Shown: positions 18,992-30,771 of the stretch, one piece after another
Numbering within the stretch: position 1 is the stretch's first letter
Layout of the letters: the number at the start of each line of letters is the position of its first letter
From: an uncultured Planctomycetales bacterium
GTDB lineage: Bacteria; Omnitrophota; Gorgyraeia; Zapsychrales; JAHFFX01
DNA: 57,583 nt
Reading direction: 5' to 3'
Assembly: GCA_964620805.1 (NCBI GenBank)
Contig: CAZUJQ010000003.1
Coordinates: 1-57,583, forward strand
Made by a program: the position numbers and the translations under genes
The notes under the pieces: model-generated
Databases searched by the model: none
What the model was told of the DNA's origin: nothing
Seen by the model: the letters and a program-made list of their open reading frames with translations, nothing else

Positions 18992-19306
18992 GTGATTGCT
19001 GAGCAGAAGATTAGAAGAATTATCTTTAAATCATTAAAACGAATCGTCGATTCCAAAATCGTCCCCAGAGATTTTGATATCAATGATGACACCGTTTTAA
19101 TCGGTATGGGGGGCAATTTAGATTCTATTTCCTTTGTGGCTTTTGCTACGGACGTCGAAGAACAAATAGAAGAGGTAATTGATCGGGAATTCATATTAAA
19201 ACTTCAGGAGATCCATGATCTCAATGAAGGCAAAAATGCTTTAATCGTCAAGGATATGGTGAGCCTTTTGGCAAAAATTGTGAATCAACAAAAAAAACAT
19301 GCCTAG
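18992..19306 (+). CDS. Acyl carrier protein
   Basis: GTG start; LIGMGGNLDSISFVAFATDVEE (DS phosphopantetheine site); acidic 104 aa. Confidence 0.75.
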   Translation: MIAEQKIRRIIFKSLKRIVDSKIVPRDFDINDDTVLIGMGGNLDSISFVAFATDVEEQIEEVIDREFILKLQEIHDLNEGKNALIVKDMVSLLAKIVNQQKKHA

Positions 19307-20012
19307 CGAAAAATGTGTGATTGTCATTACCGGGACAAGCCGAGGAATCGGCTTGGGAATCGCGAAGCATTTCCTAAAAAAAGGTTACCGTGTGGAGGGT
19401 TGCAGCCGTGGGACATCCTCGATCAGAGACCCTAGTTATGAGCATGCCCAATTGGATGTGAGCGATGAAGAGCAGGTTTGTAGTTGGATCAGGGGTATCA
19501 AGCGCCGACATAAACGTATTGATGTTGCGATTAACAACGCCGGATCGGCACCGGCGGCTATTCCTGTGATCATGACCTCCAAGAAAGTCCTCAATGATGT
19601 CCTACAAACAAATACGATCGGTTCTTGTCTTGTGTCGCGCGAAGTGGCACTGGTGATGACTCCTAAAAAATTCGGGAGGATCATTAATGTTTCCTCTATG
19701 GCCGTTGGTTTACATGAAGAGGGAACAGCCGCTTATTCCGCTTCAAAAAATGCCATTGTGGAATTTACCCGTATTATGGCCAAAGAACTGGCTCCGCTAG
19801 GGATTACCTGCAATGTCATCGCCCCATCCATGATTAAGACGCAGGCCGTTGAAGATCTGGGAGAAAAAGTTATTGAGCGGGCCTTAGGCAAACTCACGAT
19901 TAAAAGAACAATTACTATCGAAGAGATCTGTCATGTTCTGGATTTCTTGATTGATCCTTTAGGCGGAATTATTACAGGTCAGGTCATCCATATGGGCCTT
20001 ATACAAAATTAA
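19299..20012 (+). CDS. SDR oxidoreductase (FabG-like)
   Basis: TGTSRGIG, INNAG, YSASK, NVIAP. Confidence 0.85.
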   Translation: MPSEKCVIVITGTSRGIGLGIAKHFLKKGYRVEGCSRGTSSIRDPSYEHAQLDVSDEEQVCSWIRGIKRRHKRIDVAINNAGSAPAAIPVIMTSKKVLNDVLQTNTIGSCLVSREVALVMTPKKFGRIINVSSMAVGLHEEGTAAYSASKNAIVEFTRIMAKELAPLGITCNVIAPSMIKTQAVEDLGEKVIERALGKLTIKRTITIEEICHVLDFLIDPLGGIITGQVIHMGLIQN

Positions 20013-20014
20013 AA

Positions 20015-28119: not shown

Positions 28120-30131
28120 AAGCACTGTCTAAGAAATCTAAGAAGCCCAAACCACCAATGTCAGATCCCATCGATATCGGACAAGAGATTTATGGGCTTA
28201 TGGTTGAGCTTTATCCGATTTGCCGTAGTATCACCGGCGATGGCGTTCGAAAAACGCTGCGCATAATTTCAAAACATATTCCCCTTAAGGTCACAGAAGT
28301 GCCGACCGGGATAAAAGTGTTGGATTGGACCGTACCCAGAGAGTGGAACATTAAGGATGCTTATATTAAAAATTCTAGGGGAGAGAAGATAATAGATTTC
28401 AAGCATTCCAATCTGCATGTTTTGAATTACAGTGTGCCTGTCTCTAAAACGGTAAACCTCGAAGAATTAAAGAAACATATTTTTACTTTGCCCCAATATC
28501 CCGATCGAATACCTTACCGGACGTCCTATTATCAGGAGAATTGGGGCTTTTGTATGACTCACCATCAGTTCCAGCAATTAAAAGAGGATACGTATAAAGT
28601 TGTGATCGACTCAGAGCTAAAAGAAGGGAGCCTTACCTTTGGTGAGTTCTTTCTTGAGGGGAATTCAAAAGAAGAAATCTTGTTTTCCTGTTATCTTTGC
28701 CATCCCTCTTTGTGCAATGACAATTTAAGCGGAATTGTCCTTTTGACATTCTTGGCCAAATCCCTTTTAGGGCATTCTTTAAAATATTCGTATCGGTTTT
28801 TGTTTATTCCGGAGACAATCGGCTCTATTACGTGGTTGAGTTTAAATGAAGAAAGGGTCGAAAATATCAAAGGTGGATTAGTCGCAACCTGTGTGGGTGA
28901 TCCCGGTTCAATGACCTACAAGAAAAGCCGCAAAGCAAATACCTTGATTGATAAGACGGTGGAAAAAGCCCTGATTGATTTAAAAGATCCCTATAAAATC
29001 ATCGACTTTTTTCCATCGGGAAGCGATGAGCGTCAATTCTGTTCTCCGGGTTTTAATTTGCCGATCGGTTCATTGATGAGGACCCCCTACGGGCAGTTTT
29101 CTCAATATCATACTTCGGCCGATAATTTAGATTTTGTAGAGCCTCAATATTTAGGCGATTCCTTTAAAAAATATGAAGCGGTCGTTTCAATCTTAGAAAA
29201 AGATAGTACCTACCTTAATCTTAATCCTAAATGCGAGCCTCAATTGGGAAAGCGGGGACTTTACAGTATGATCAGCGGATTTGGTGAGGACGGAGCCAGG
29301 GAGGTAGCTATGCTCTGGGTTCTTAATCTTTCCGATGGAAACCACTCCCTCTTAGATATTGCTATCCGTTCACAATTGCCTTTTGAACGGATTAGAGAGG
29401 CGGCCGACGCCTTATTGAAAAGCGGTCTATTAAAAATCGCACTAACCACACAGAAAGAAGATTTTACTCCGATGTCCCCATGTCCATCTCAGGCGGATGA
29501 AGCAGCGGTGGATCGGAGTTTCCCGACCGAAGCATCGGGGAACCGCGAAACAAAAGAGGCCATGGACGATAGCCCACGGAGCTTCACCTTAAGGCAGGCG
29601 CGGAAGAATGACTGCAAGGATTTATGGGTTTGGCGCAATCACCCTGAGGTCAGAAAGTGGTGTTTTAATAAAGAGGGAATCCCCTATGGGCAGCATAAAA
29701 CATGGTTTGAAGGGATATCAAAAAACGGCAAAACAACGATATTTATCATACAAGGGAAGGATAAGGAAAAGCTCGGCCAAGTGAGGTTCGATGGTGTCGG
29801 TTCTGAAAAGGCTCTCATCAATATCAATCTTAATCCGAAATTTTTTAACAGAGGAATCGGGACGCGCGCGATTCAAATGGCGACAAGAATTTTTTTAGAG
29901 TCCACCCCGGCAGTTAAAGAAATTATTGCCGAGATTTTTAAACAGAATGCCGTTTCAAAGCGAGCTTTTCAAAAAGCGGAATATTTAAAGCTAAGAAGTG
30001 AAGTCAAAAACAACGAGAAAATAGAGATTTTTTCCTTTAAGCGTAGCCTTAAAGTTCCTGAAAATGCAAGTGAAAAATCAAACCGATATATTTATGAAAA
30101 AAGAGGGCAATGCCTGGTTTCAGAGAAATAA
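28101..30131 (+). CDS. DUF4910 (DUF2172 + M28-like + HTH) protein fused to PseH-like GNAT acetyltransferase
   Basis: YPICRSITGDGVRKT, WTVPREW, YRTSYYQENWGFC, CHPSLCNDNLSG, SDERQFCSPG, YHTSAD, CEPQLGKRGLY; then LRQARKNDCKDLWVWRNHPEVR..HKTWF..IGTR..NAVSKRAF. True start may be ATG 28158. Confidence 0.82.
   Translation: MGNLQLKALSKKSKKPKPPMSDPIDIGQEIYGLMVELYPICRSITGDGVRKTLRIISKHIPLKVTEVPTGIKVLDWTVPREWNIKDAYIKNSRGEKIIDFKHSNLHVLNYSVPVSKTVNLEELKKHIFTLPQYPDRIPYRTSYYQENWGFCMTHHQFQQLKEDTYKVVIDSELKEGSLTFGEFFLEGNSKEEILFSCYLCHPSLCNDNLSGIVLLTFLAKSLLGHSLKYSYRFLFIPETIGSITWLSLNEERVENIKGGLVATCVGDPGSMTYKKSRKANTLIDKTVEKALIDLKDPYKIIDFFPSGSDERQFCSPGFNLPIGSLMRTPYGQFSQYHTSADNLDFVEPQYLGDSFKKYEAVVSILEKDSTYLNLNPKCEPQLGKRGLYSMISGFGEDGAREVAMLWVLNLSDGNHSLLDIAIRSQLPFERIREAADALLKSGLLKIALTTQKEDFTPMSPCPSQADEAAVDRSFPTEASGNRETKEAMDDSPRSFTLRQARKNDCKDLWVWRNHPEVRKWCFNKEGIPYGQHKTWFEGISKNGKTTIFIIQGKDKEKLGQVRFDGVGSEKALININLNPKFFNRGIGTRAIQMATRIFLESTPAVKEIIAEIFKQNAVSKRAFQKAEYLKLRSEVKNNEKIEIFSFKRSLKVPENASEKSNRYIYEKRGQCLVSEK
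29483..29543. repeat. Two short palindromes inside the DUF4910-GNAT linker
   Basis: TCCATC-TCA-GGCGGA (29483-29497, imperfect) and GTTTCCCGA-CCGAAGCA-TCGGGGAAC (29518-29543, 9-bp stem with one G-U). Confidence 0.5.
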
Positions 30132-30771
30132 AAAGGCATTGCATGATTTTCATATCCTGACGAAGGATAATGTCCTTCGTTTAATCAGGGAAGCAGGAAT
30201 CATTCCCAAGAAAGCTTTAGAAGCAGGCTGCAGTAATGGTTGGAGGCTTGGGGAAATCGAAAGGCAATATGGCTGCGAGTGTCTTGGCGTCGATGCCTCA
30301 CGAAAAGCCATTAGTGACGGGGAAAAGAGATATCCGAATATCATTTTTAAATATGGGAATATTGCTTCCTTACCGATTAAAAATGAATGCTTTGATCTGG
30401 TGATTGTCCATTTTGTCTTTCATTGGGTGGCCCGCGATTTGCTTTTGAAGTCTGTCGCTGAGATAGACCGCATCGTTGCCGATGGTGGGTTTCTCATTTT
30501 GGGAGATTTTTTGCCCGATAAACCTCTTAAAAACTATTACCATCATCTTCCGGCACGGGAGGTTTATACCTACAAGCTCGATTACACCAATATTTTTATT
30601 TCCTCGGGTTTGTATAAGGTTGTTGGCAAAGTGGTATTTGATCACGACAATCGAGACAATCAGGGTGAGATTTCGCCTTATAGTCGGGCGGGATGCTTTC
30701 TCTTAAAGAAGTCGATCCATGATTTTTATGAGTTGCAAACCGGGAATCATCAACGGAAGGCAACGGTTTAA
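30064..30771 (+). CDS. Class I SAM-dependent methyltransferase
   Basis: LEAGCSNGWRL, LGVDAS, FDLVIVHFVFHWV. Confidence 0.82.
   Translation: MQVKNQTDIFMKKEGNAWFQRNKKALHDFHILTKDNVLRLIREAGIIPKKALEAGCSNGWRLGEIERQYGCECLGVDASRKAISDGEKRYPNIIFKYGNIASLPIKNECFDLVIVHFVFHWVARDLLLKSVAEIDRIVADGGFLILGDFLPDKPLKNYYHHLPAREVYTYKLDYTNIFISSGLYKVVGKVVFDHDNRDNQGEISPYSRAGCFLLKKSIHDFYELQTGNHQRKATV

What the first reader, a model, noticed from the sequence alone, without database searches (positions are those of the whole stretch)
18992..30771. Carrier-protein acyl assembly line resembling Campylobacter cj1295-cj1304, predicting methylated glyceroyl-nonulosonate
Seen: two ACPs, SDR, three methyltransferases, FabH, MaoC-SDR, FkbH, AAC(3), DUF4910 and PseH-like GNAT, contiguous after pseC/pseG/neuB. 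Established: FkbH loads glycerate from 1,3-bisphosphoglycerate onto ACP. From recall, the C. jejuni flagellin locus has the same families (cj1295 DUF4910-type, AAC(3)-like cj1296-98, ACPs, FkbH-like cj1302, fabH2), and Cj1295 is linked to di-O-methylglyceroyl pseudaminic acid. Inference: an expanded version of this system in a distant lineage installs an ACP-built N-acyl group on the nonulosonate.
Basis: partly seen in the sequence, partly recalled or inferred. Interest (0 to 1): 0.76.

Follow-up and report, generated by a model that had tools for sequence, protein, structure and literature searches.

The report
Acyl-carrier cassette decorating a nonulosonate sugar
Inside a 50-kb surface-sugar gene cluster of an uncultured bacterium, eleven tightly packed genes build unusual acyl groups on two small carrier proteins and most likely swap them onto the amino groups of a pseudaminic-acid-type sugar. 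The same cassette proves to be widespread across bacterial phyla, and I found no biochemical study of it.

Summary
Window 18992-30771 holds eleven co-directional genes that overlap or abut: two carrier proteins, a FabG-like SDR, FabH, a MaoC-SDR fusion, FkbH, three methyltransferases, an AAC(3)-like protein fused to a degenerate DUF4910, and a DUF4910-HTH_47-GNAT fusion. They lie about 3 kb downstream of PseC, PseG and NeuB.

The Campylobacter comparison holds at family level. Published annotation calls Cj1295 aminopeptidase-like, Cj1296/7 AAC(3)-like and cj1302 FkbH-domain. I could not fetch any C. jejuni sequence for a direct test.

The locus is not a rare "expanded version". The eight-gene core ACP1-SDR-(MT or MBL)-FabH-MaoC/SDR-MT-FkbH-ACP2 is syntenic in about a dozen loci from roughly eight phyla. 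An unfused AAC(3)/DUF4910/GNAT triad also occurs elsewhere.

"Methylated glyceroyl" is not the best prediction. The MaoC/SDR-FkbH-ACP trio recurs alone, once directly before a KS-first PKS. This suggests glyceryl-ACP is dehydrated and reduced to a lactyl-type unit. FabH, SDR and ACP1 probably make a second, 3-hydroxybutyryl-type acyl group.

AAC(3) and GNAT would transfer the two acyl groups to N5 and N7, and DUF4910 would first remove the N5 acetyl. I rate it a new variant of a genetically known but biochemically unexplored system, of moderate interest.

The parts
18992..19306 (+). ACP1, a 104-aa carrier protein (GTG start)
   Evidence: No Pfam hit. Nine-member family alignment A2 has invariant G38, L43-D44-S45, F48 and V49. 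The profile hits solved ACP 2L4B at E 1.2e-4. It is always the first gene of the cassette in related loci.
19299..20012 (+). SDR1, a FabG-like ketoreductase
   Evidence: adh_short 141 bits; 3-oxoacyl-ACP reductase models at E 1e-44 but below their cutoffs. TGxxxGIG and YSASK motifs are present.
20015..21079 (+). MT1, a class I SAM methyltransferase with a winged-helix N-terminus, probably a C-methyltransferase
   Evidence: Best models and structures are 2-ketoarginine methyltransferase (TIGR04543 E 8e-16; PDB 8R4Z E 7e-7), AprA MT1 and MppJ, all weak. An MBL-fold gene takes this position in L004 and L005; a gap of matching size at the same position in other loci was not annotated.
21069..22067 (+). 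FabH (KAS III)
   Evidence: NF006829 287 bits, cutoff 249. Best solved relatives are canonical FabH enzymes at 191 bits. Cys117 (ANCTGF), His258 (HQAN) and Asn288 (GNT) are present.
22058..23266 (+). MaoC dehydratase fused to a FabG-like SDR (DH-KR)
   Evidence: MaoC_dehydratas 70 bits, adh_short_C2 204 bits. The hydratase motif GDNNPLH and the YAIGK motif are present. The SDR half is closest to FabG structures (163 bits) rather than FabL (127 bits).
23238..24236 (+). MT2, a class I SAM methyltransferase
   Evidence: Methyltransf_11/12/25/23/31 hits. Conserved between MaoC-SDR and FkbH in most full cassettes.
24229..26058 (+). FkbH-like glyceryl-ACP loader (FkbH_N + HAD-IIIC + C-terminal domain)
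   Evidence: TIGR01686 282 bits, cutoff 147; FkbH_N 39 bits. PDB 3SLR 179 bits. D255-C-D257 (DxDxT) and S523-C524-R525 are invariant across 13 homologues.
26055..26306 (+). ACP2, an 83-aa carrier protein
   Evidence: ACP models at E 5.5e-9; PF00550 19.7 bits against a 20.8 cutoff. DSL motif present. It follows FkbH in nearly all of 80 genome loci.
26296..28119 (+). AAC(3)-like N-acyltransferase fused to a truncated, degenerate DUF4910 domain
   Evidence: Antibiotic_NAT 90 bits at aa 56-254; DUF2172 72 bits; DUF4910 52 bits covering only profile positions 5-145 of 247. In alignment A3 the His of CHP becomes Asp, the Glu of PETIG becomes Gln, and the YH[ST]SxD segment and HTH_47 are missing. The AAC(3) half is 52% identical to a standalone AAC(3) in L088.
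28101..30131 (+). Full DUF4910 (M28-like) + HTH_47 fused to a PseH-like GNAT
   Evidence: DUF4910 367 bits, DUF2172 142, HTH_47 102, Acetyltransf_3 48. PDB 3K9T 'putative peptidase' 587 bits over aa 24-446. Weak Peptidase_M28 hit at aa 206-353, E 0.04. Motifs CHPSLCNDNLSG, PETIG and YHTSADNL are shared by the full-length DUF4910 proteins aligned. The GNAT half is 44% identical to a standalone GNAT in L088. PseH model 45 bits, below its cutoff of 93.
30064..30771 (+). MT3, a class I SAM methyltransferase (likely start 30094)
   Evidence: Methyltransf_11 57 bits, Methyltransf_25 53 bits. The JGI gene call is 225 aa.
7222..8439 (+). Context: PseC aminotransferase, which creates the future N7 amine
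   Evidence: TIGR03588 515 bits, cutoff 423.
13792..14937 (+). Context: PseG UDP-sugar hydrolase
   Evidence: TIGR03590 239 bits, cutoff 154.
14934..15980 (+). Context: NeuB/PseI-type nonulosonate synthase
   Evidence: Pfam NeuB 290 bits. NeuB 362 bits and PseI 311 bits, both below their equivalog cutoffs.
16875..18965 (+). Context: candidate nonulosonate transferase (696 aa)
   Evidence: Only a weak BFO_1060-family glycosyltransferase hit, E 8e-5. Homologue in L005.
30772..32733 (+). Context: candidate nonulosonate transferase (653 aa)
   Evidence: Weak 'surface carbohydrate biosynthesis', BFO_1060 and LIC12162 hits. An L005 ORF is 31% identical. 606- and 653-aa ORFs with the same weak Epimerase_2 or LIC12162 hits sit in L088 and L091.
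32733..33479 (+). Context: CMP-sugar synthetase candidate (PseF-like, weak)
   Evidence: CTP_transf_3 57 bits. PseF model 59.5 bits, below its cutoff.

Best explanation
The region is one operon segment that makes non-acetyl acyl groups on carrier proteins and transfers them to the amino groups of a pseudaminic-acid-type nonulosonate built by the neighbouring PseC/PseG/NeuB genes.

The mechanism I commit to has two branches.

Branch 1:
- FkbH takes a C3 unit from 1,3-bisphosphoglycerate and loads glyceryl onto ACP2. This is established chemistry for the family and inferred here.
- The MaoC domain dehydrates it to enol-pyruvoyl/pyruvoyl-ACP2.
- The fused FabG-like SDR reduces that to lactyl-ACP2.
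- MT2, and perhaps MT3, O-methylate it. The expected product is 2-methoxypropanoyl, or an O-methylglyceroyl if dehydration is skipped.
- All steps after loading are inferred.

Branch 2:
- FabH condenses acetyl-CoA with malonyl-ACP1.
- MT1 may C-methylate the keto intermediate.
- SDR1 reduces it to 3-hydroxy(-2-methyl)butanoyl-ACP1.
- All steps are inferred.

Transfer:
- The full DUF4910 domain, an M28-like metallohydrolase, removes the GlcNAc-derived N5-acetyl.
- The AAC(3)-like enzyme, whose gene overlaps ACP2 by 11 nt, puts the ACP2-borne acyl on N5.
- The PseH-like GNAT acylates the PseC-made amine (future N7) with the ACP1-borne acyl, or with acetyl.

I put about 0.8 on the general function (carrier-protein-dependent N-acyl decoration of this locus's amino sugar). 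I put about 0.4 on the two-branch scheme as written.
For: Gene content and intact motifs.

Operon structure.

Link to the nonulosonate pathway:
- PseC and PseG pass their cutoffs.
- NeuB lies directly beside the cassette in L005/L006, L036, L069, L071 and L088.

MaoC/SDR acts on the FkbH product:
- The trio MaoC/SDR-FkbH-ACP occurs without FabH or ACP1 in L019, L036, L037, L038, L059, L069 and L071.
- It occurs with MaoC and SDR as separate genes in L091.
- It lies immediately upstream of a KS-first modular PKS in L090, where it can only be a loading module.
- A published domain table gives the FkbH loading reaction as 1,3-bpg + ACP -> D-lactate-ACP (PMC7901079).
- DH-MT-FkbH-ACP loading modules are described (PMC4552970).

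Two separate branches:
- In L005 one GNAT flanks the ACP1 end and another follows ACP2.
- The window has two carriers and two N-acyltransferases.
- A third ACP1-like carrier + FabH + GNAT module with no FkbH lies at 48015-50414.
- FabH looks canonical.

AAC(3) as the partner of ACP2: it directly follows ACP2 in L024, L032, L059, L088 and L089.

DUF4910 works with acyltransferases:
- Fusions to GNAT, AAC(3) and a methyltransferase are seen.
- The unfused order AAC(3)-DUF4910/HTH_47-GNAT-NeuB occurs in L088.
- Conserved M28-like motifs, a weak M28 hit, and Peptidase_M28 hits in family members.

Deacetylase idea and N5 position: the C. jejuni product is the 5-N-(2,3-di-O-methylglyceroyl) derivative, and Hitchen et al. 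proposed that Cj1295 cleaves the N5-acetamido group.
Against: - No enzyme here or in any related locus has been assayed, so every step after FkbH loading is inference from context.
- In Anaerosolibacter the full two-carrier cassette sits with a pathway that makes a sugar with one amine and with a single GNAT. This fits a single convergent acyl chain better than two branches.
- The AAC(3)/DUF4910 pair also occurs with a DegT aminotransferase and a different acyl-supply route in L092. There a free amine may exist and no deacetylation would be needed, so DUF4910 may have another role.
- In C. jejuni a similar family set is linked to plain di-O-methylglyceroyl.
- The GNAT may simply be the pathway's acetyl-CoA-dependent PseH, since no other PseH candidate is present.
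- No canonical PseB was found.
- MT1's C-methyltransferase assignment rests on weak hits.
Confidence: 0.4

Rival explanations
1. Single convergent chain. The eight-gene core is one mini assembly line. The glycerate-derived (lactyl or glyceryl) unit on ACP2 primes FabH. FabH extends it with malonyl-ACP1. MT1 C-methylates and SDR1 reduces the product. The result is one C5-C6 dihydroxy or methoxy acyl group, for example 3,4-dihydroxy-2-methylpentanoyl, which is then transferred to one amine.
For: - The eight genes keep their order in loci assigned to about eight phyla, and rearrangement breakpoints fall at different places, so no fixed two-module split is visible.
- Anaerosolibacter has the full two-carrier cassette beside a pathway for a mono-amino dTDP-sugar with one GNAT.
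- Each enzyme is used exactly once in this scheme.
- FkbH/ACP/FabH-like sets that join an ACP-bound glycerate to a second ACP-bound thioester are established in tetronate pathways (PMC4979870).
Against: - FabH scores as a canonical KAS III. Such enzymes normally take acyl-CoA primers (my knowledge).
- Both halves exist as independent modules elsewhere.
- L005 and the window have one transferase per carrier.
- I know of no reported sugar N-acyl group with this structure.
Confidence: 0.22
2. The product is a methylated glyceroyl group as in C. jejuni NCTC 11168. FkbH loads glyceryl-ACP, the methyltransferases O-methylate it, and it replaces an N-acetyl on the nonulosonate. FabH, the SDRs and MaoC play accessory or unrelated roles.
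For: - The same families (DUF4910/Cj1295, AAC(3)/Cj1296-7, FkbH/cj1302) are annotated in the C. jejuni locus. Its product is 5-N-(2,3-di-O-methylglyceroyl)-Pse, and this requires Cj1295.
- Three methyltransferases are present here.
- Simpler loci L022 and L024 (DUF4910, B12-rSAM, MT2, FkbH, ACP2, AAC(3)-DUF4910') lack MaoC/SDR and FabH, and would fit this chemistry.
Against: - It leaves five intact enzymes without a role: FabH, SDR1, MaoC, SDR2 and ACP1.
- MaoC/SDR co-travels with FkbH-ACP, including as a PKS loading unit.
- Only Cj1295 has been tied genetically to the C. jejuni product.
- No sequence-level comparison with C. jejuni was possible.
Confidence: 0.15
3. The acyl groups go to a different acceptor in the same glycan rather than to the nonulosonate. 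Candidates are another amino sugar or a hydroxyl group.
For: - The cassette serves a dTDP-3-amino-sugar pathway in Anaerosolibacter.
- Most FkbH-ACP loci have no NeuB within 10 kb.
- The window also encodes a class-III aminotransferase fusion and a GFO/IDH/MocA oxidoreductase that could make other amino sugars.
Against: - The cassette lies between NeuB and a cytidylyltransferase and is flanked by two candidate nonulosonate transferases.
- PseC is the only DegT-type aminotransferase in the window.
- The GNAT is the only PseH-like protein.
- NeuB adjacency recurs in independent loci.
Confidence: 0.1
4. DUF4910 is not a de-N-acetylase. This rival concerns only that sub-claim and is independent of which acyl group is made. 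Instead DUF4910 would be an obligatory partner of the AAC(3)-like transferase, for example docking or unloading acyl-ACP, or forming the amide itself.
For: - AAC(3)+DUF4910 pairs occur with unrelated ACP supply routes and with aminotransferases that already give a free amine (L092).
- A catalytically degenerate DUF4910 copy is fused to AAC(3) in the window and in L024, which suggests a structural role.
- The HTH_47 domain is always attached.
Against: - M28-like metal-ligand motifs are strictly kept in the full-length proteins.
- The C. jejuni acyl group sits at N5, which starts out acetylated.
- Cassettes that sit with only a GNAT manage without DUF4910.
Confidence: 0.3
5. The cassette makes a free small molecule, such as a tetronate or polyketide, and not a glycan substituent.
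For: - FkbH + ACP + FabH-like is the conserved tetronate-forming set.
- The MaoC/SDR-FkbH-ACP trio feeds a PKS in L090.
Against: - The window has no PKS/NRPS and no second ketosynthase to supply a beta-ketoacyl partner.
- The cassette is embedded in glycan genes and is followed directly by N-acyltransferases.
Confidence: 0.03

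Closest known systems
Campylobacter jejuni NCTC 11168 flagellin glycosylation genes Cj1295-Cj1304 (di-O-methylglyceroyl pseudaminic acid)
   Same: The same families sit beside Pse genes.
- An aminopeptidase-like DUF4910 protein of about 435 aa. Cj1295 is required for the 5-N-(2,3-di-O-methylglyceroyl) form.
- An AAC(3)-like acetyltransferase, Cj1296/7.
- An FkbH-domain protein, cj1302.
- From my recall only: two ACPs, fabH2, a methyltransferase and a GNAT.
   Different: - Here AAC(3) and GNAT are fused to DUF4910 domains.
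- A MaoC-SDR fusion, a second SDR and two more methyltransferases are present. I could not check whether Cj1301, annotated as an 'epimerase', corresponds to any of them.
- The gene order differs.
- There are no homopolymeric phase-variation tracts in the region.
- The surrounding locus looks like a polysaccharide locus (ABC transporter, Wzy-like protein, GT2/GT1) and has no flagellin gene.
- No sequence-level comparison was possible.
PKS loading modules containing FkbH (DH-KR-FkbH-ACP type giving a D-lactyl starter; DH-MT-FkbH-ACP in OocJ)
   Same: The same four activities (dehydratase, ketoreductase and/or methyltransferase, FkbH, ACP) lie next to each other. A discrete MaoC/SDR-FkbH-ACP trio sits in front of a KS-first PKS in L090.
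   Different: - Here they are free-standing proteins.
- The dehydratase is a MaoC hot-dog rather than a PKS DH domain.
- The acyl group goes to N-acyltransferases, not to a ketosynthase of a PKS.
- The bryostatin DH-KR-FkbH-ACP example is from my recall.
FK520/FK506 methoxymalonyl-ACP pathway (FkbG-H-I-J-K)
   Same: FkbH + dedicated ACP + O-methyltransferase.
   Different: The window has no FkbK-type 3-hydroxyacyl-CoA dehydrogenase and no FkbI-type acyl-CoA dehydrogenase. Oxidation to hydroxymalonyl-ACP is therefore not expected.
Tetronate 'glycerate utilisation' set (FkbH-like, ACP, FabH-like)
   Same: FkbH, ACP and a FabH homologue are co-located (PMC4979870).
   Different: - The FabH here scores as a canonical KAS III.
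- There is no PKS to supply a beta-ketoacyl-ACP.
- The downstream genes are N-acyltransferases.
Tannerella forsythia Pse5Am7Gra (7-N-glyceroyl pseudaminic acid)
   Same: A natural Pse carrying a glycerate-derived N-acyl group. Both candidate transferases here weakly match the BFO_1060 glycosyltransferase family model. I link that family to the T. forsythia nonulosonate transferase from recall only.
   Different: The genetic basis of the glyceroyl group in T. forsythia was reported as unknown in 2017 (PMC5378307). No FkbH link has been published that I could find.
ACP/KAS III/ketoreductase sets for N-(3-hydroxybutanoyl) amino sugars (Pseudomonas syringae viosamine island; recall) and the Vibrio cholerae O1 RfbK-O tetronate route (recall)
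   Same: A carrier protein plus FAS-like or LuxCE-like enzymes supply a non-acetyl N-acyl group to an amino sugar. L092 shows the AAC(3)/DUF4910 pair next to a LuxC/LuxE/AMP-ligase/ACP set.
   Different: - No FkbH in those systems.
- The comparison rests on memory and was not tested here.

Membership tests
Cj1295-Cj1304-type nonulosonate N-acyl modification locus | DUF4910 / PIRSF015244 aminopeptidase-like protein of about 435 aa | tested here: met
   DUF4910 367 bits + HTH_47 102 bits. 587 bits to the 435-aa solved protein 3K9T. The paper lists Clostridium acetobutylicum in the Cj1295 family. That 3K9T is the C. acetobutylicum protein is my recall.
Cj1295-Cj1304-type nonulosonate N-acyl modification locus | AAC(3)-like N-acyltransferase adjacent to it | tested here: met
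   Antibiotic_NAT 90 bits, cutoff 25. Cj1296/7 is annotated as aminoglycoside N3'-acetyltransferase.
Cj1295-Cj1304-type nonulosonate N-acyl modification locus | FkbH-domain protein with a dedicated ACP | tested here: met
   TIGR01686 282 bits, cutoff 147. ACP2 overlaps the FkbH stop by 4 nt. cj1302 is an FkbH-domain gene.
Cj1295-Cj1304-type nonulosonate N-acyl modification locus | Second ACP, FabH paralogue, SAM methyltransferase, GNAT | tested here: met
Present in the window.
Cj1295-Cj1304-type nonulosonate N-acyl modification locus | Linkage to pseudaminic acid biosynthesis genes | tested here: met
   PseC and PseG are above their equivalog cutoffs. NeuB/PseI-type synthase lies 3 kb upstream in the same strand run.
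Cj1295-Cj1304-type nonulosonate N-acyl modification locus | Reciprocal best hits to the C. jejuni proteins | not testable with these tools
   The single genome-collection scan returned the 80 best of more than 577 FkbH loci, none from Campylobacter. No other tool holds the C. jejuni chromosome.
Cj1295-Cj1304-type nonulosonate N-acyl modification locus | Product is a (di-O-methyl)glyceroyl nonulosonate | not testable with these tools
   Needs mass spectrometry or NMR of the sugar. Context argues for further processing of the glyceryl unit.
FkbH-type glyceryl-ACP loading enzymes | HAD-IIIC phosphatase core with a DxDxT motif | tested here: met
   TIGR01681 69 bits, cutoff 36. LDCDNT motif, with D255 and D257 invariant.
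FkbH-type glyceryl-ACP loading enzymes | Conserved C-terminal cysteine for the acyl-enzyme intermediate | tested here: inconclusive
   S523-C524-R525 is invariant across 13 homologues. That this is the catalytic Cys is my inference from memory of OzmB/FkbH work.
FkbH-type glyceryl-ACP loading enzymes | Loads glyceryl from 1,3-bisphosphoglycerate onto its ACP | not testable with these tools
   This is a biochemical assay.
Methoxymalonyl-ACP pathway (FkbGHIJK) | FkbK-type 3-hydroxyacyl-CoA dehydrogenase and FkbI-type acyl-CoA dehydrogenase | tested here: not met
   No 3HCDH or acyl-CoA dehydrogenase domain in any ORF of the window.
Tetronate-forming FkbH/ACP/FabH-like set | A PKS or FAS source of beta-ketoacyl-ACP, plus a divergent FabH-like condensing enzyme | tested here: not met
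   No PKS in the window. FabH passes the KAS III subfamily cutoff, and its best structural relatives are canonical FabH enzymes.
Pseudaminic acid pathway (PseB, C, H, G, I, F) | PseC and PseG | tested here: met
   515 bits against 423, and 239 bits against 154.
Pseudaminic acid pathway (PseB, C, H, G, I, F) | PseB, PseH, PseI and PseF at equivalog level | tested here: inconclusive
   - PseB model: at most 48 bits for any SDR in the window.
- PseH: 45 bits against a 93 cutoff, only in the fused GNAT.
- PseI: 311 bits against 340.
- PseF: 59.5 bits against 206.
M28 metallopeptidase fold (for DUF4910) | His/Asp/Glu/Asp/His metal-ligand constellation | tested here: inconclusive
   Motifs CHP...NDNLSG, PETIG, GD and YH[ST]SxDNL are shared by the full-length DUF4910 proteins aligned. 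Peptidase_M28 hit at E 0.04 in the window protein, with recorded hits in relatives. Mapping these motifs to metal ligands is my inference. The copy fused to AAC(3) lacks them.

The most novel reading that the evidence does not exclude
The eight-gene core ACP1-SDR-MT1-FabH-MaoC/SDR-MT2-FkbH-ACP2 would be a free-standing, two-carrier mini polyketide line. It starts from a glycolysis-derived lactyl or glyceryl unit on ACP2, extends it once on ACP1, and methylates it at carbon and oxygen. The product would be a branched C5-C6 hydroxy or methoxy acyl group not yet reported on any sugar. DUF4910, a very large and highly conserved family with a solved structure but no known function, would be the amidase that strips the N5-acetyl so that an AAC(3)-fold enzyme can install the new group from acyl-ACP.
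Probability: 0.2. Interest if true: 0.72.

Novelty: new variant of a known kind. Interest (0 to 1): 0.5.

Why it matters
Nonulosonic acids such as pseudaminic and legionaminic acid carry many different N-acyl groups that shape antigenicity, phage recognition and flagellar assembly. How any group other than acetyl or acetimidoyl is made is largely unknown.

This locus, together with the related loci found here, lays out a complete and testable parts list:
- a carrier-protein supply line fed from 1,3-bisphosphoglycerate;
- a FAS-like branch;
- a three-part transfer unit (DUF4910, AAC(3)-like, GNAT).

The gene fusions in the window tie DUF4910 physically to both acyltransferases. This is the kind of evidence that can direct biochemistry on a family with more than 8000 close homologues and one solved structure, but no assigned reaction.

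The window itself is one of many such loci, so its value is as a well-preserved example rather than a unique system.

Tried and rejected
1. Direct comparison with C. jejuni. Protein searches list only the top 120 of about 8000 hits, and none was named as Campylobacter. I fell back on published annotations.
2. Plasmid collection search with FkbH. It found Sinorhizobium pSymB and Streptomyces hits at about 30% identity. The S. meliloti region had only the FkbH homologue and no annotation, so it was uninformative.
A profile search against solved structures was used instead.
4. Methoxymalonyl-ACP and tetronate readings were rejected for lack of FkbI/FkbK and of a PKS.
5. The idea that the two roughly 650-700-aa flanking proteins are paralogues was rejected, because BLASTP shows no similarity.
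6. Promoter and terminator scans gave counts no higher than shuffled sequence.
7. Organism assignment. The window partly matches a JGI metagenome contig. The best genome relative is an uncultured Planctomycetales MAG at only 54-75% identity across the cassette proteins it shares, so the lineage remains unassigned.
8. I did not use the third protein-database search or the representative-library search, since neither would name C. jejuni proteins.

Full report
**What is there**

From about 1150 to 54300 the window is one long run of + strand genes for surface-glycan synthesis. The finding's interval, 18992-30771, holds eleven genes. Neighbours lie between a 38-nt overlap and a 2-nt gap. Promoter-like and terminator-like matches are no more frequent than in shuffled sequence.

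Family assignments are firm for most genes.
- FabH passes the KAS III subfamily cutoff (287 bits against 249).
- FkbH passes the FkbH-domain cutoff (282 against 147).
- The AAC(3) domain scores 90 bits against a cutoff of 25.
- DUF4910 scores 367 bits, HTH_47 102 bits and the GNAT (Acetyltransf_3) 48 bits.
- The two SDRs and three class I methyltransferases are clear.
- ACP2 is recognised by ACP models at E 5e-9.

The first ORF has no Pfam hit. Its homologues, which open the cassette in other loci, share an invariant G..LDS motif, and their profile finds a solved ACP at E 1e-4.

Catalytic motifs are readable in the translations:
- FabH Cys-His-Asn;
- the MaoC motif GDNNPLH;
- both SDR YxxxK motifs;
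- the FkbH DxDxT motif and an invariant SCR cysteine.

AAC(3), DUF4910 and GNAT are arranged as two fusion proteins. One is AAC(3) joined to a truncated DUF4910. The other is a full DUF4910-HTH_47 joined to the GNAT.

**Surroundings**

Upstream lie PseC (515 bits, above its cutoff), PseG (239 bits, above its cutoff) and a NeuB/PseI-type synthase. The same stretch holds a TylF-type methyltransferase, a cytidylyltransferase fused to a class-III aminotransferase, and a B12-radical SAM enzyme.

There is no canonical PseB and no free-standing PseH. The fused GNAT is the only PseH-like sequence (45 bits, cutoff 93).

Two proteins of 650-700 aa flank the cassette. Each has only weak hits to the BFO_1060 glycosyltransferase family (the downstream one also to LIC12162), so they are candidate nonulosonate transferases.

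The rest of the window looks like a polysaccharide locus: a CDP-glucose pathway, an ABC transporter, a Wzy-like protein, and GT2 and GT1 glycosyltransferases. No flagellin gene is present.

**Source**

The window overlaps a JGI metagenome contig. The closest FkbH in 5.8 billion proteins is 57% identical. The closest genome locus is an uncultured Planctomycetales MAG at 54-75% identity across the cassette proteins it shares. The lineage is not assigned.

**How common is it**

FkbH proteins of this 600-aa type are very numerous.

I mapped the window's proteins onto 90 fetched loci, and gene calls for several contigs added more detail. Together these show a nested set of modules.

- **FkbH-ACP2.** This pair is nearly universal. 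It is followed by one of several acyltransferase types or another partner: AAC(3)-like, GNAT, hexapeptide-repeat, an AMP-binding enzyme, or an unannotated 375-aa protein.
- **MaoC/SDR-FkbH-ACP2.** This trio occurs in at least seven genome loci, often next to NeuB or a DegT aminotransferase.
- **The eight-gene core.** ACP1-SDR-(MT1 or an MBL-fold gene)-FabH-MaoC/SDR-MT2-FkbH-ACP2 keeps its order in loci assigned to Planctomycetales, Acidovorax, Solirubrobacterales, Vulcanimicrobiota, Bdellovibrionota, Rhodospirillales, Gemmatimonadaceae and Anaerosolibacter (Clostridia), and in unassigned metagenome contigs.
- **The transfer triad.** Locus L088 carries the same end of the pathway unfused and in the same order: AAC(3) (273 aa), DUF4910/HTH_47 (440 aa) and GNAT (160 aa), followed by NeuB. 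Its AAC(3) and GNAT are 52% and 44% identical to the window's domains.

So the window is a well-preserved member of a widespread cassette, not a singular expansion.

**The Campylobacter link**

- Cj1295 is a 435-aa protein of the 'polysaccharide biosynthesis protein with aminopeptidase-like domain' family.
- It is required for the form of pseudaminic acid identified as CMP-7-acetamido-5-(2,3-di-O-methylglyceroyl)amino-Pse.
- The authors proposed that Cj1295 cleaves the N5-acetamido group so that the new acyl group can be added.
- Cj1296/7 is annotated as an aminoglycoside N3'-acetyltransferase.
- cj1302 is an FkbH-domain gene and cj1301 is annotated as an 'epimerase'.

The window's DUF4910-HTH_47 unit matches the 435-aa solved 'putative peptidase' 3K9T at 587 bits. 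I could not retrieve any C. jejuni sequence, so the proposed reciprocal searches remain undone.

**What the acyl chemistry is likely to be**

Three context observations argue against a plain methylated glyceroyl group.

First, the MaoC/SDR pair stays with FkbH-ACP when FabH and ACP1 are absent. It also appears as two separate genes beside FkbH, ACP and an AAC(3)-DUF4910 fusion in L091.

Second, in an Entotheonellaceae genome the same trio sits immediately upstream of a modular PKS whose first domain is a ketosynthase. There it can only act as a loading unit. A published domain table gives the FkbH loading reaction as 1,3-bisphosphoglycerate + ACP -> D-lactate-ACP. A DH-MT-FkbH-ACP module is also described. 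The simplest reading is that MaoC dehydrates glyceryl-ACP2 to the enol of pyruvoyl-ACP2, and the FabG-like domain reduces it to lactyl-ACP2. That domain is closer to FabG than to FabL. MT2 then acts as an O-methyltransferase.

Third, FabH is a canonical KAS III with its own carrier and its own ketoreductase. A further ACP1-like carrier + FabH + GNAT set, with no FkbH, lies at 48015-50414. In L005 one GNAT sits at the ACP1 end and another directly after ACP2.

I therefore favour two branches. One gives a lactyl or methoxypropanoyl-type (or O-methylglyceroyl) unit on ACP2. The other gives a 3-hydroxy(-2-methyl)butanoyl unit on ACP1.

MT1 most resembles C-methyltransferases that act next to a carbonyl (2-ketoarginine methyltransferase, AprA MT1, MppJ), but only weakly.

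The main rival is a single chain in which FabH extends the ACP2-borne starter. It is favoured by the strict synteny across phyla. It is also favoured by Anaerosolibacter, where the whole cassette accompanies a sugar pathway with one amine and one GNAT.

**Transfer**

The AAC(3)-like gene overlaps ACP2 by 11 nt here and follows ACP2 in five other loci. It is the natural user of acyl-ACP2.

Full-length DUF4910 proteins keep motifs that look like an M28 metal site: CHPxxxNDNLSG, PETIG and YH[ST]SxDNL. The window protein has a weak Peptidase_M28 hit, and relatives have recorded ones.

The family is very large and strongly conserved. Members from CPR bacteria, Omnitrophota, Babeliales and an archaeon are 64-71% identical to the window's domain. 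The family is found fused to GNAT, to AAC(3) and to a methyltransferase.

N5 of pseudaminic acid derives from the acetamido group of UDP-GlcNAc (established pathway knowledge), and the C. jejuni acyl group is at N5. Deacetylation by DUF4910 followed by re-acylation by the AAC(3)-like enzyme is therefore the most economical model.

The DUF4910 copy fused to AAC(3) has lost the His and Glu of these motifs and the whole C-terminal half. The same is true in a Deltaproteobacteria locus. It is probably a non-catalytic docking domain.

One observation does not fit easily. A Beckwithbacteria locus pairs AAC(3)/DUF4910 with a DegT aminotransferase and a LuxC/LuxE/AMP-ligase/ACP supply route. Deacetylation may be unnecessary there, so DUF4910 could instead be an acyl-ACP handling partner.

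**Verdict**

- The specific product prediction and the idea of a lineage-specific expansion are not supported.
- The system is a new variant of a kind known only genetically. None of its enzymes has been assayed in any paper I could find.
- Interest is moderate. The chemistry and the DUF4910 function are open and directly testable, but thousands of comparable loci exist.

Noticed in passing
window 48015-50414 (and on to 52528): A third carrier-like ORF of 107 aa has 'MES' where ACP1 has 'LDS' (hhalign to the ACP1 profile: probability 77%). It is followed by a second FabH (28% identical to the first), a 348-aa GNAT, a polysaccharide deacetylase and a GT1. This is an FkbH-independent ACP/KAS III/GNAT acyl module in the same locus.
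   Followed up: partly
window 32733-37534: This stretch holds a cytidylyltransferase, a HAD phosphatase, an HpcH/HpaI aldolase, a KdsB-like cytidylyltransferase (292 bits, above its cutoff), a 2-hydroxyacid dehydrogenase and an epimerase. The same set recurs beside the FkbH locus of a Nitrospiraceae MAG (L038), and partly in L036, L069 and L071. It may make a CMP-activated 3-deoxy-ulosonic acid.
   Followed up: partly
window 10069-12162: A cytidylyltransferase is fused to a class-III (glutamate-1-semialdehyde aminomutase-like) aminotransferase. Homologues of the aminotransferase half, 47-48% identical, lie between FkbH-ACP and PseG in L026 and L065.
   Followed up: no
window 12188-13903 and 55980-57530 (- strand): Two B12-binding radical SAM proteins, one directly before PseG. 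B12-radical SAM genes also sit in related loci L005, L018, L022/L024, L056 and L091, which suggests a recurring C-methylation step.
   Followed up: no
window 16066-16875: A 269-aa ORF with no family hit in Pfam or NCBIfam. It is 60% identical to the ORF immediately upstream of ACP1 in the Planctomycetales locus L032, so it may belong to the cassette.
   Followed up: partly
window 5733-7217: A CBS-pair domain is fused to an extended SDR (LegB-like, 71 bits). No canonical PseB is present anywhere in the window, so this may be the pathway's 4,6-dehydratase.
   Followed up: no
window 8397-9095; locus L091 6879-7616: A TylF-type O-methyltransferase lies next to PseC in the window. In L091 a TylF-type methyltransferase sits between FkbH and its ACP, so the window's copy may be a fourth methyltransferase acting on the acyl unit.
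   Followed up: no
locus L032 3388-6873: In the closest genome relative, four genes are inserted between MT1 and FabH: a B12-binding protein, a URO-D-like methyltransferase, a methionine-synthase activation domain and a homocysteine S-methyltransferase-like protein. Together they look like a corrinoid-dependent methyl-transfer set.
   Followed up: partly
locus L092 2590-11263 (Candidatus Beckwithbacteria): The gene order is ACPS, ACP, AMP-ligase, Fe-ADH, LuxE, LuxC, AAC(3), DUF4910/HTH_47 and Acetyltransf_6. The AAC(3)/DUF4910 pair is here served by a different carrier-protein acyl supply route.
   Followed up: partly
locus L090 8699-19841 (Candidatus Entotheonellaceae): MaoC/SDR, FkbH and ACP lie directly upstream of a 2557-aa PKS that begins with a ketosynthase, next to an NRPS. 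This looks like a discrete FkbH loading module for a polyketide.
   Followed up: partly
proteins P0123-P0240: The 435-aa DUF4910/HTH_47 family is unusually conserved for a glycan-locus protein of unknown function. Members are 64-71% identical to the window's domain, including ones from CPR bacteria, Omnitrophota, Babeliales and a Thermoplasmatota archaeon.
   Followed up: partly
window 53011-53018 and 53354-53361: Two G8 homopolymer tracts lie inside an ORF of 503 aa (52809-54320) with no Pfam hit. No such tracts occur in the finding's region.
   Followed up: no
window 1716-3494: Glucose-1-phosphate cytidylyltransferase (311 bits, above its cutoff) and a CDP-glucose 4,6-dehydratase-like gene. 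The locus therefore also makes a CDP-linked 6-deoxy sugar.
   Followed up: no
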